From assembly GCA_030264375.1 (NCBI GenBank), contig JASCQW010000081.1, positions 53,459,423-53,523,422 of the forward strand: 64,000 nt of DNA, written 5' to 3'. The position numbers are program-made. Shown here piece after piece: positions 12,001 through 15,000 of this stretch. The stretch's first letter is position 1. Each line of letters starts with the position of its first letter. This stretch comes from Carcharhinus longimanus (lineage: Eukaryota).

Positions 12001-15000
12001 TAACTTCTTGATCAGTGCTGGGTGAAAATCTAAATGGAAAAATAAATAGCACCGATATGTAGATATAAAGGAAAGTTATTTTAACATGTTTTACTAAAAC
12101 TTAGATTTTACAGCCTCAAGGTCTACTTTCGTGTATGTTTGTCCATATATGATGCTCAAGGATCTAATCAGATTCTTGCACAATCTCTTGTTGCATAACT
12201 TGTGAATTGCATGAATGGAAATCCAAATTCAGGACAGCTTTCAACCTTTTCCAAAAGAAGTCCTGTTGAAACTCATTCTGAGGCCATTCCAAGTAAGTGT
12301 TTCTATTCATCAGTTTCCGTAGTTTGCAAAAACGATCAGGGATGGAGTTCTTTGGAATAGGTTCTAGCAGGAGCAAGATAAGACTGTCCTTTTTGTCATC
12401 AAATACCTGTTTGTGGGCAAAGAAGAGTTCATAGTGGCACCATTCACTTTGCACAAAGTGTTTTGAAAGGATGAATATGGTTTTGTAGCTTTTTGATATA
12501 CAGTCAATGATATTGTTAATTATTGACTTTCCAGGTTTGAAGTCTCTTTCATGGATACAGATGTGGAATGGTGGGTCACTATTTTCTAACTGTACCAACA
12601 ATTTGTTCTTCACCCACGATGCGTCATGTTCACTGTATGAAATGAAAGCATTGTACTCAAATCTGCGTTCCTCCAAATTGATGTTGTGACCTCTTTTAGC
12701 TTTAAGCCAGAGATAGAGAGTTCGGATGTACCAGGTAATATTATACTTGATACATAGCATAATGCACACAGCTAACAAAAGCACTACACATGCCAAAAGG
12801 ACCCCAACGAATAAGGGAATTTTGCACTCAATAGGAGAAAATTTCAGGAATTGGATAACTTGACCTTTGAATTTTTGTGGACGGTCGCATCGATACTGGT
12901 CTGGCCAATCAAGTATCACAGTTTGTGTCTGCTGAACGTAATTAGAGACTGACTGAACTGCACAGAAGCACTCAAAAGGATTGTTGCTGAATTTGAGTTC
13001 AGCTAGATCTAAGGACTGTAATGAGTGGATGTTTAAGTTCTGAATTTTATTGTGATTAATGTGCAAGAATTTCAGTGAGTGACCCAGTGGAATCTCAGGA
13101 AAAGATACTATGATGTTTGCTGTCAAAAACACTTCGTGGAGATTTCTCAGCCCTTTGAGGTTTGGGACTGTGGTGATGGAATTGTAACTCAAGTCTAGCG
13201 ATTCCAGTGATTCTGGTAAGCAGCCAAACACACTGCTTTTCAGGTTGTTGTGTGAAAAATTTATGTGCGTCATAGTCTGAGGCCAATTGCAGGCCGATCC
13301 CTCCTGTAGTTCAAGACTATTGTGACAAGCACTTATACTAGACAAGTTCTCCATTTTCGATAATAATGTACTAAACTTGGGTAAATTTGAAAATTTGTTC
13401 TTACTTACAATGAGCGTTTTAAGATTGGGGAAAGGAGGAGTGCAATCTTTAGGAATGAAGGTGGATTCTTGAAGCAAGTTTTGGGATATGTCCAAATATC
13501 TCAGAGAAGTCATTACTTTTGATACCTCACATGGAACATAAAACAAATTTCCCTCAAGTATTGTTAACTCTGTCAGTTGTGTAAATATATCAAGAAGATA
13601 GTCAAGTGAGTAAAAACGGTAGAAGTTTGGATTATCTACATTAATTATGTGGAGTTTGCGCAAACTAATCTGATCAGATGGAACAGNNNNNNNNNNACAG
13701 GAACTATTTCCCACTTGCCCACGCCATCCATTCTAATTGCTTTCAAAAATAATTCATTTATTTTTGAGCTGAGAACAAAGTTTAACAAATGAGTGACCAA
13801 AGAATCATCAATGGTAATATTCTGCGCTACTAGTGTCGTGATTTTTGATTTCTTCAAAGGGGAAAATAAATCTGCACCTCCTGCATTTTTGACTAAATCA
13901 GAATTTAGAATTTCCAGTGTAGTAGTCGTTGTTGGAATGTCATTGAAGAGCTTGATCAATAATTGTACTTTCTGTCCAAACTGGAAATCAAAAGAAAGCT
14001 TTTCTACATTTTGCAAGGCATTAAGTGTTCCAGGTTCATATACCTGCAAATCTCCTGTAACTAAGTAAACTTCCTTAAGTGGGATTCCACGAAGTGCAGA
14101 TAAGGAATTGGACTTCAAGGAAGAAAGGCGAGCGTTTCCAAAGTGTAGAGAATACAGGTTCTGTAGTTTGTTGATTTCTGCTCCAAAGTCAGCTGTATCA
14201 AACATGTTGTTAGTGATATCAAGGTGTGTTAGTGACTGGAGATGATTAAATGGCAAGGCTGAAATATCATGCAAAAAATTATTTGAAAGATCAAGATACC
14301 TTAGTTCTGAATTTTTTGAAAATGATCCAGGTTCTATGTCAGTGATGTGATTGAATTGAAGAAAAAGTTTTTTCAGCTTGGTGAAATTCTGGAAACTCTG
14401 CTGTTGAATTATTCTGATGCTGTTGTAAGACAAGTCCAACATCTCTACATCTGGTGCCAGGATACAATGAGAAAGTGGATAGCCAATTCCTGAGCAATTT
14501 ACTAAAGAAGTATCTATCCTCTTTGGTATTGCAGAACAACCAACCATAAATAGAATACTTGTCAATATAGCACCTGCTCCGAGATGTGTCATCTTGGCCT
14601 TGATATCTGTGAAGTAAATTCTGCTTCCAAGTAACATCTCCTCTATTCACGCACTGGCCATTTTCAAACGCACCCTGTTAAAAGACAAATATGAATAATG
14701 ATAAATCTGGCCTTGATGTTAAAAAAGGTATTAGCAGCACCATATTCAGTGCAATCCTGGTCCTATTTTAAAAAAAAAATCCAGACACCAGCCACCCAAA
14801 CTATGATAACTTACTTCTTTTTGTTTAAGAGTCTTAGATGCTAAGTGGCTCTGCGCTAGGCACTATGATAATCAGAAATGGATGAGGTGTTGTTGATGAT
14901 AGTGTTTTGGGTGGTTTTAGCCAAGATTAAACATCAAAAATTTAAAGAACAAGAGGCCATTTGGTCCACCATATCTATGGCTGAACAAGAGCTTTTAGCA

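What the first reader, a model, noticed from the sequence alone, without database searches (positions are those of the whole stretch)
12164..14637. TLR1-subfamily receptor directly downstream of HMCN1, a locus with no TLR in mammals
Seen: a full LRR-TM-TIR gene co-oriented with HMCN1, 11 kb past its stop. Known: in mammals HMCN1 is followed by PRG4/TPR, TLR1/6/10 sit near KLF3/FAM114A1, and TLR2 near SFRP2/RNF175. The TIR mixes TLR1-like (PGKSI, SEWCHYELFFAH) and TLR2-like (RFCKLRKLMN..TYLEWP) motifs and lacks the TLR14/18/25-type YFAQQRA motif. Inference: a distinct, probably ancient paralog (TLR27-like or unnamed) that mammals lack.
[Added by the scan's program, not by the reader: the finding's places include an assembly gap (unread letters, written N; its length is only estimated) at 13687 to 13696. 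Whether the letters on both sides are continuous or in frame is not known: test that first.]
Basis: partly seen in the sequence, partly recalled or inferred. Interest (0 to 1): 0.7.

Follow-up and report, generated by a model that had tools for sequence, protein, structure and literature searches.

The report
Shark TLR27 gene beside hemicentin-1
This is an apparently intact shark copy of TLR27, an innate-immune receptor already known from sharks, gar and coelacanth and lost in mammals, so the finding is real but ordinary.

Summary
On the minus strand a one-exon LRR-TM-TIR gene runs from ATG 14592 (or the in-frame ATG at 14637) to the stop at 12164-12166. It lies 11.2 kb past the stop of HMCN1 (25841-25843), on the same strand.

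As written, the 10-N gap at 13687-13696 puts the two halves out of frame. However, the halves abut exactly on 9 of 9 orthologs with no residue missing. The four bases before the gap equal the four after it. A second 10-N gap, inside an HMCN1 exon, shows the same signature. The break is therefore most likely an assembly spacer.

A careful tree gives a 100/100 clade with proteins of sharks, rays, chimaera, sturgeon, gar, coelacanth and lungfish. This clade is separate from the TLR2 clade (100/100, holding six cartilaginous-fish TLR2s) and from TLR1/6. Seven cartilaginous-fish species carry both this gene and a true TLR2, on different contigs.

Distribution and elimination identify it as TLR27, already reported as single-copy in elasmobranchs and mapped to the human-chromosome-1 paralogon. 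Ligand and signalling are inferred only.

The parts
12164..13684 (-). TLR27 coding sequence, C-terminal piece (506 codons plus the stop at 12164-12166). It holds the central and C-terminal LRRs, LRRCT, TM and TIR.
   Evidence: Open frame. Pfam LRR and TIR. Gapless over all 506 residues with five shark orthologs at 78-93% identity.
13687..13696 (.). Assembly gap (10 N) inside the coding sequence, in the central LRR subdomain.
   Evidence: As written it shifts the frame. Orthologs show no residue missing. The flank ends are identical over 4 bases. A second 10-N gap shows the same signature. Not filled.
13697..14592 (-). TLR27 coding sequence, N-terminal piece (298 codons from ATG 14592, plus 2 bases). 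It holds the signal peptide, LRRNT and N-terminal LRRs.
   Evidence: Pfam LRR_8 E 7.3e-20. 69-92% identical to six shark orthologs, gapless with Scyliorhinus, Heterodontus and Heptranchias.
14635..14637 (-).
   Evidence: An in-frame stop lies just upstream of it. This methionine is a leucine in Heterodontus.
12749..12820 (-). Transmembrane helix (P0002 residues 289-312).
   Evidence: The model shows a helix at 289-313.
12230..12655 (-). TIR domain (P0002 residues about 344-485) with box 1, the BB-loop RDFKPG and box 3 FW.
   Evidence: Pfam. PDB TIR domains of TLR2, TLR1 and TLR6, E 1e-55 to 1e-58. Motif coordinates.
25841..26206 (-). HMCN1 last coding exon (fibulin-type C-terminal module) with the stop at 25841-25843.
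   Evidence: 83-95% identity to named hemicentin-1.. Weak Fibulin_C match.
27071..63866 (-). HMCN1 3' exons, colinear with named HMCN1: five TSP1 repeats (63866, 61865, 59701, 58079, 54404), G2F (53014-47763) and EGF_CA exons (47441, 45658, 44685, 44253, 42615, 32067, 30671, 27199).
   Evidence: tblastn of named HMCN1 fragments. Pfam TSP_1, G2F and EGF_CA on single exons.

Best explanation
The gene is the ortholog of TLR27 in a carcharhiniform-like shark. TLR27 is a member of the TLR1 subfamily that arose before cartilaginous and bony fishes split, and that teleosts and tetrapods later lost.

It is a single-exon type I membrane receptor of about 804 residues. From the N terminus it has a signal peptide and about 19-20 LRRs in the three-subdomain layout of the TLR1 family. 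In that layout the asparagine ladder is kept at both ends and broken in the middle. LRRCT, one transmembrane helix and a TIR domain with an intact BB loop follow.

Shown here: the architecture, the orthology group, the position 11.2 kb downstream of HMCN1 on the same strand, and very strong conservation of the TIR within the clade.

Inferred: it sits at the cell surface, binds a hydrophobic microbial ligand (lipopeptide-like) at the border of the central and C-terminal LRR subdomains, dimerises with itself or with TLR2 or TLR1, and signals through MyD88 to NF-kB.

The frame break at the 10-N gap is taken to be an assembly spacer between overlapping contig ends.
For: - **Architecture.** Pfam LRR and TIR. 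Both halves align along the TLR2 ectodomain structure: P0001 46-294 to 2z7x_A 25-269 and P0002 6-242 to 286-514. Ladder positions read N at 4 N-terminal repeats, non-N at 7 central motif matches (two overlapping) and N at 7-8 C-terminal repeats. In the AlphaFold model of P0002 (mean pLDDT 74.5, LRR part mostly 85-97) the ectodomain half fits TLR2 chains at 2.9-3.7 A over about 285 columns, against 5.3 A for TLR1.
- **Orthology by similarity.** 19 of the 120 listed homologs are 50-93% identical: 11 named elasmobranch species, 2 unnamed, Callorhinchus, Acipenser, Lepisosteus, Latimeria and Protopterus x2. The other 101 are 36-42% identical. In the library clustered at 50% identity the two best full-length representatives score 690 and 618 bits, and the next scores 369.
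- **Orthology by tree.** In the careful tree of 48 rows x 496 columns the window clade is 100/100 and its inner branching follows the species tree. TLR2 is 100/100 and includes six named cartilaginous-fish TLR2s. TLR1/6 is 100/100.
- **Paralogy within species.** 7 of 7 species present in both lists with contig data carry the clade gene and TLR2 on contigs of different length.
- **TLR27 label.** The whale shark is reported to have only TLR1/6/10, TLR2/28 x2 and TLR27 in this subfamily (passages). Its protein P0006 sits in the window clade. [quoted passage not shown] HMCN1 lies on human chromosome 1q (recalled).
- **Gap.**
- **Scaffolding.** All 8 N runs within the HMCN1 part are bracketed by colinear exons.
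Against: - **Label.** No sequence that a source or paper labels TLR27 was in my hands. The label rests on distribution and elimination. NCBI and UniRef call every clade member 'toll-like receptor 2'.
- **Unplaced relatives.** Five unnamed fragments whose best named match is a clade member (P0178, P0187, P0214, P0245, P0301) were not placed, and their taxa are unknown.
- **Frame.** As assembled the frame is broken. If the 10 N stand for exactly ten real bases, the gene has 14 surplus bases and is frame-shifted.
- **Adjacency.** It crosses three N runs and was not checked in any other genome.
- **Model quality.** The TIR part of the model has low confidence (pLDDT about 50-70).
- **Function.** Ligand, partner, location and expression are untested. 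One review lists TLR27 ligands as not characterised and another lists 'LPS/poly(I:C)'.
- **Deep relationships.** A sister link to TLR1/6 in the quick tree (91) was not kept in the careful tree, where the relations among the subfamily's clades are unresolved.
Confidence: 0.85

Rival explanations
1. It is the shark TLR2 ortholog, or a shark-specific TLR2 duplicate, as the database names ('toll-like receptor 2', 'type-2') suggest.
For: All named clade members carry TLR2 names. The ectodomain matches TLR2 chains better than TLR1 or TLR6: 137 bits against 70-72 bits, and rmsd about 3 A against 5.3 A. The RFCKLRKLMN..TYLEWP stretch is TLR2-like.
Against: The TLR2 clade is 100/100 and excludes the window clade. 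Fifteen cartilaginous-fish proteins, 57-100% identical to the Mobula TLR2 query, are 44-47% identical to tetrapod TLR2 and group with it. Seven species have both genes on different contigs. Lungfish has both kinds as well.
Confidence: 0.03
2. It belongs to an unnamed TLR1-subfamily lineage that is not the published TLR27.
For: A 2023 preprint describes further TLR1-subfamily clades (TLR25-like and a novel clade) near TLR27 (passages).
Against: The clade's taxon range equals the range printed for TLR27: coelacanth, gar, elephant shark, whale shark, all elasmobranch orders, and not teleosts or tetrapods. The whale shark and elasmobranch repertoires leave no other slot. The neighbour HMCN1 fits the reported chromosome-1 paralogon.
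Confidence: 0.08
3. The gene is a recent pseudogene with a frameshift at 13687-13696, and/or its place beside HMCN1 is a scaffolding error.
For: With 10 N the two halves are out of frame. The window has 15 N runs, three of them between the two genes. The 2026 preprint found no TLR27 in one carcharhiniform, the blue shark (passage).
Against: Both halves are open and gapless against shark orthologs at up to 93% identity, with no stop in 804 codons. The identical flank ends and the same signature at a second 10-N gap in a conserved HMCN1 exon point to an assembler's spacer. All 8 N runs inside HMCN1 are bracketed by colinear exons. The reported chromosome-1 paralogon location fits HMCN1.
Confidence: 0.08

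Closest known systems
TLR27 (first described in coelacanth, then spotted gar, elephant shark, whale shark and elasmobranchs)
   Same: The taxon range is the same: cartilaginous fishes, non-teleost ray-fins and lobe-finned fishes, with none found among teleosts or tetrapods. It is single-copy per species. It belongs to the TLR1 subfamily with a three-subdomain ectodomain. It lies in a region syntenic with human chromosome 1.
   Different: No difference was found. The identity is by elimination, because no labelled TLR27 sequence was available. The HMCN1 neighbour is not named in any text I could search (0 papers), though it may be in the preprint's closed Supplementary Figure 1.
TLR2
   Same: The ectodomain is alignable over nearly its whole length and is the best structural match. 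The RFCKLRKLMN..TYLEWP stretch and the RDF.PGK BB loop are shared. The TIR is 58% identical to human TLR2 TIR in the fold alignment.
   Different: It forms a separate 100/100 clade. It is 36-42% identical to the other 101 proteins listed, most of them tetrapod TLR2, TLR1 or TLR6. Sharks have their own TLR2 on another contig. It has PGKS/P where TLR2 rows have PGKW, and HYELFFAH where they have KYELDFSH.
TLR1/TLR6/TLR10
   Same: SEWCHYEL.FAH and PGKSI are as in the named TLR1/6 rows. The TIR is 55-57% identical to the TLR1 and TLR6 TIR structures.
   Different: It forms a separate 100/100 clade. The ectodomain match is much weaker (E about 1e-18 to 1e-19; rmsd 5.3 A). It has RFCKLRKLMN where TLR1/6 rows have .Y.KL.ALM.
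TLR14/18/25 (label recalled, not verified)
   Same: They belong to the TLR1 subfamily. The unnamed representatives P0166, P0172, P0179, P0191, P0182, P0183 and P0203 may be these lineages.
   Different: The window clade is separate from that 99/99 group and from P0166. It contains orectolobiform sharks, which are reported to lack TLR14, and elasmobranchs, which are reported to lack TLR25.

Membership tests
Toll-like receptors | LRR ectodomain, single transmembrane helix and cytoplasmic TIR domain in one chain | tested here: met
   Pfam LRR families and TIR E 1.5e-21. TM at P0002 289-312. The chain is continuous only if the 10-N gap is an artefact.
Toll-like receptors | TIR boxes 1-3 with the BB-loop proline needed for adaptor recruitment | tested here: met
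   Box 1 YNAFISYSEHD, BB loop RDFKPG and box 3 FW are all present and conserved across the clade. The role of the proline is recalled knowledge.
TLR1 subfamily (family 1) | Three-subdomain ectodomain of about 19 LRRs with the asparagine ladder interrupted in the middle (PMC4877655, passages) | tested here: met
   The ladder residue is N at 4 N-terminal and 7-8 C-terminal repeats, and non-N at 7 central motif matches, two of them overlapping. The sequence aligns along TLR2 chains. The fold fits TLR2 at about 3 A. The regex count is approximate.
TLR1 subfamily (family 1) | Groups with TLR1, TLR2 and TLR6 to the exclusion of other TLRs | tested here: met
   45 ingroup rows are split from 3 outgroup rows at 100/100. 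The outgroup rows are unnamed representatives of 900-960 residues.
TLR2 orthogroup | Falls inside the clade of tetrapod, lungfish and cartilaginous-fish TLR2 | tested here: not met
   TLR2 clade 100/100 (15 rows) excludes it. The same species carry a separate TLR2.
TLR1/6/10 orthogroup | Falls inside the clade of named TLR1 and TLR6 | tested here: not met
   TLR1/6 clade 100/100 (11 rows) excludes it. No named cartilaginous-fish TLR1 was available.
TLR27 | Present in cartilaginous fishes, non-teleost ray-fins and coelacanth; absent from teleosts and tetrapods | tested here: met
   The 19 clade members are of exactly these groups plus lungfish. None of the 101 other listed proteins exceeds 42% identity. 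Only two full-length representatives score above 369 bits. Unnamed fragments leave a small doubt.
TLR27 | Groups with sequences published as TLR27 | not testable with these tools
By elimination the whale shark clade member must be the published whale shark TLR27.
TLR27 | Lies in the conserved syntenic block on the human-chromosome-1 (MHC paralog 1) equivalent | tested here: inconclusive
   HMCN1 is the upstream neighbour here, and the preprint states the chromosome-1 equivalent. That HMCN1 is on human 1q is recalled. The preprint's flanking genes are in a closed supplement. No other genome was checked.
TLR27 | Ligand and signalling pathway | not testable with these tools
   Not characterised according to PMC6043800 (passage).

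The most novel reading that the evidence does not exclude
TLR27 may be a self-sufficient lipopeptide sensor that unites in one chain what TLR2 and TLR1/6 do as a pair. It has a TLR2-like ectodomain. Its TIR carries TLR1/6-like residues in one helix region and TLR2-like residues in another. It may therefore work as a homodimer. Its site at the 3' flank of HMCN1 would then mark the exact place where teleosts and tetrapods lost such a receptor. Nothing here excludes this reading, and nothing here tests it.
Probability: 0.1. Interest if true: 0.55.

Novelty: already known. Interest (0 to 1): 0.15.

Why it matters
It matters little beyond annotation. The gene is a further ortholog of a receptor already catalogued across elasmobranchs.

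Three small points are useful:
- Automatic names call this whole clade 'TLR2', which is wrong and could mislead counts of TLR2 copies in sharks.
- A 10-N spacer breaks the frame here. This kind of artefact could make a gene finder miss or truncate TLR27 in a draft assembly.
- HMCN1 as the immediate neighbour gives a precise anchor for asking how teleosts and tetrapods lost TLR27.

The function of TLR27 remains unstudied.

Tried and rejected
- **Naming representatives.** I did not repeat it.
- **Literature.** The TLR27 paper of Wang et al. 2015 is not held. Searches for TLR27 with HMCN1 and for hmcn1 + toll-like receptor + synteny + shark found 0 papers. The 23 listed papers holding 'TLR27' (24 hold the term) gave no accession in the passages I read.
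- **Quick tree.** The quick tree put the clade as sister to TLR1/6 (SH-aLRT 91). The careful tree did not keep this, so I make no claim on deep relations.
- **TLR2 ortholog.** Rejected.
- **Other genes in the window.** Pfam found nothing for three repeat-like ORFs (36379-36807, 10247-10561, 10760-10939). I saw no further gene in 1-12163 or 14650-25840 among frames of 75 or more codons. Only the two ORFs at 10.2-10.9 kb from those stretches went to Pfam. Small exons would be missed.
- **Fold search.** The top fold hit, a TLR5 homology model, has rmsd 37.9 A and is meaningless.
- **Not done.**
Exons were searched one by one.
  - I did not check synteny in other vertebrate genomes, because no such collection was on hand.
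  - Six representatives that might be mammalian (P0186, P0189, P0206, P0228, P0248, P0272) and the chimpanzee-named cluster P0382 were left out of the trees.
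Full report
**What is there.**

The finding's coordinates hold a gene on the minus strand.
- From ATG 14592 an open frame of 298 codons runs to the assembly gap (P0001).
- From 13684 a second open frame of 506 codons runs to a stop at 12164-12166 (P0002).
- Pfam finds LRR families in both pieces and a TIR domain in the second (PF01582, E 1.5e-21).
- A hydrophobic stretch at 12820..12749 is the transmembrane helix, and the three TIR boxes are present.
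The methionine at 14592 is shared by 7 of 7 orthologs printed, while the upstream one is a leucine in Heterodontus, so I prefer 14592.
- The window is shark DNA, not human. The closest protein is from Mustelus asterias, at 93% identity.

**The gap, tested first.**

With 10 N as written, two bases are left over before the gap and two after it. That makes 14 bases between whole codons, and the halves are out of frame. Three observations say the break is an artefact.
- In an alignment with nine orthologs the last residue of P0001 and the first of P0002 fall in adjacent columns. In pairwise BLAST they cover Scyliorhinus residues 1-298 and 299-804, so no residue is missing.
- On the + strand the four bases before the gap are identical to the four after it, as expected if two contig ends overlap.
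- The window has two other 10-N runs. The one at 31941-31950 lies in an HMCN1 exon. It has five identical flank bases and exactly five surplus codons against a catfish HMCN1. The third, at 35038-35047, is non-coding and shows no such identity.

If the N stand for ten real bases, the gene is frame-shifted. I rate that unlikely, because both halves are open and gapless against shark orthologs over 804 codons.

**The neighbour.**

The HMCN1 exons were searched one by one. I built and searched no joined model.
- The last exon (26206..25844, stop 25841-25843) is 83-95% identical to proteins named hemicentin-1 in fish, birds, reptiles and mammals.
- Named HMCN1 fragments of hamster, catfish and turkey map on the minus strand in the right order: five TSP1 repeats, G2F, eight EGF exons and the C-terminal module, from 63866 down to 25844.
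- Pfam confirms TSP_1, G2F and EGF_CA on single exons.
- The TLR start lies 11,248 bases past the HMCN1 stop on the same strand.
- Three N runs lie between the two genes, so the adjacency depends on scaffolding. In its favour, all 8 N runs inside the HMCN1 part are bracketed by colinear exons.
- I could not check the adjacency in any other genome.

**What it is.**

Of the 120 best homologs, 19 are 50-93% identical.
- They come from 11 named elasmobranch species, Callorhinchus, Acipenser, Lepisosteus, Latimeria and Protopterus (two proteins), plus two unnamed entries.
- The other 101, most of them tetrapod TLR2, TLR1 and TLR6, are 36-42% identical.
- All named clade members carry automatic TLR2 names.

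In a library clustered at 50% identity the two best full-length representatives score 690 and 618 bits, and the next scores 369.

To test the TLR2 name I searched with one unnamed representative that grouped with tetrapod TLR2. It proved to be the TLR2 of Mobula hypostoma.
- Fifteen cartilaginous-fish proteins are 57-100% identical to it, while tetrapod TLR2 is 44-47% identical.
- Seven species (Mobula, Pristis, Narcine, Heptranchias, Heterodontus, Mustelus, Rhinoraja) appear in both lists with contig data. In 7 of 7 the two genes sit on contigs of different length.

A careful tree was built from 48 rows x 496 columns covering the part spanned by P0002. It used IQ-TREE with LG+C20, and support is given as ultrafast bootstrap/SH-aLRT.
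- The window clade has 12 rows at 100/100, and its inner branching follows the species tree.
- TLR2 has 15 rows at 100/100, six of them named cartilaginous-fish TLR2s.
- TLR1/6 has 11 rows at 100/100.
- An unnamed group of six representatives has 99/99.
- The relations among these groups are unresolved. A sister link to TLR1/6 seen in a quick tree was not kept.
- Fourteen ingroup rows and the three outgroup rows are unnamed representatives. Six possibly mammalian representatives were left out.

**The name.**

The label follows from print, of which I read passages only.
- TLR27 was found in coelacanth, then in gar and elephant shark.
- The whale shark has TLR1/6/10, TLR2/28 twice and TLR27 as its only members of this subfamily. 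Its protein P0006 lies in the window clade, outside TLR2 and TLR1/6.
- A 2026 preprint reports TLR1, TLR2, TLR14 and a single-copy TLR27 in elasmobranchs. It reports TLR14 missing in orectolobiforms and TLR27 in all species examined except the blue shark. [quoted passage not shown]
- HMCN1 is on human chromosome 1q (recalled), which fits.
- No paper in the library holds both TLR27 and HMCN1. The flanking genes may be shown in the preprint's closed Supplementary Figure 1.

**How it probably works.**

The ectodomain has the three-subdomain pattern of family 1. Asparagine occupies the ladder position in 4 N-terminal and 7-8 C-terminal repeats, but not in 7 central motif matches. PMC4877655 gives this pattern for family 1, including TLR27, and links it to hydrophobic ligands (passages).
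- Both halves align along the TLR2 ectodomain.
- A model of P0002 was built with 17 aligned sequences (mean pLDDT 74.5, LRR part mostly 85-97, TIR part about 50-70). Its ectodomain half fits TLR2 chains at 2.9-3.7 A over about 285 columns and TLR1 at 5.3 A. Its TIR fits the TIR structures of TLR1, TLR2 and TLR6 at 55-58% identity.
- The TIR is nearly invariant within the clade.
PGKSI and HYELFFAH are as in the named TLR1/6 rows. RFCKLRKLMN..TYLEWP and RDF.PGK are as in the TLR2 rows.

I therefore infer a cell-surface receptor for a lipid-bearing microbial ligand that dimerises and signals through MyD88. None of that is shown, and reviews list its ligand as uncharacterised.

**Verdict.**

The only points not found in searchable text are the HMCN1 neighbour and the assembler's spacer that breaks the frame.

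Noticed in passing
window 31941-31950 (minus-strand HMCN1 EGF exon 32067..31696): A 10-N run inside a coding exon. The five bases before it equal the five after it, and the exon has five surplus codons against a catfish HMCN1. This looks like an assembler's spacer between overlapping contig ends.
   Followed up: yes
window 50062-50676 (+): A reverse-transcriptase ORF fragment (Pfam RVT_1, E 7.5e-21), cut by the N run at 50515-50614, inside an HMCN1 intron.
   Followed up: partly
window 10247-10939 (+), 15157-15408 (-), 21264-21433 (-): ORF fragments. The two minus-strand ones share a 'FTRMLPG' stretch, and the plus-strand one has 'LWSP...' and 'FRTEVRK...WNSL' stretches. From memory these look like the tail of a LINE ORF2. 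Pfam gave no match for the two pieces tested.
   Followed up: partly
window 36379-37080 (+): ORFs with an 'LPKIHK...PGRPI' stretch that look like a retroelement polymerase (recalled). There was no Pfam match. They lie in an HMCN1 intron next to the N runs at 35326-35646 and 37333-37410.
   Followed up: partly
window about 21550-21720: Translations on both strands are simple repeats (CVCV.. and HTHT..), which indicates a dinucleotide microsatellite beside the N run at 21434-21533.
   Followed up: no
window 63696-63866 (-) and the window's right end: The best matches of the five TSP1 exons are repeats 2-6 of the catfish HMCN1. The first of the six TSP1 repeats should therefore lie beyond position 64000.
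   Followed up: no
proteins P0003-P0021: NCBI and UniRef name every member of this clade 'toll-like receptor 2' or 'type-2', although the same species have a separate TLR2. Copy counts of TLR2 taken from names would be inflated.
   Followed up: yes
proteins P0018 and P0021 (Protopterus annectens): The lungfish has two clade members (54% and 50% identical to P0002) that are sisters in the quick tree (99), both on a contig of 1,842,211,721 bases. This is a lineage-specific duplication.
   Followed up: partly
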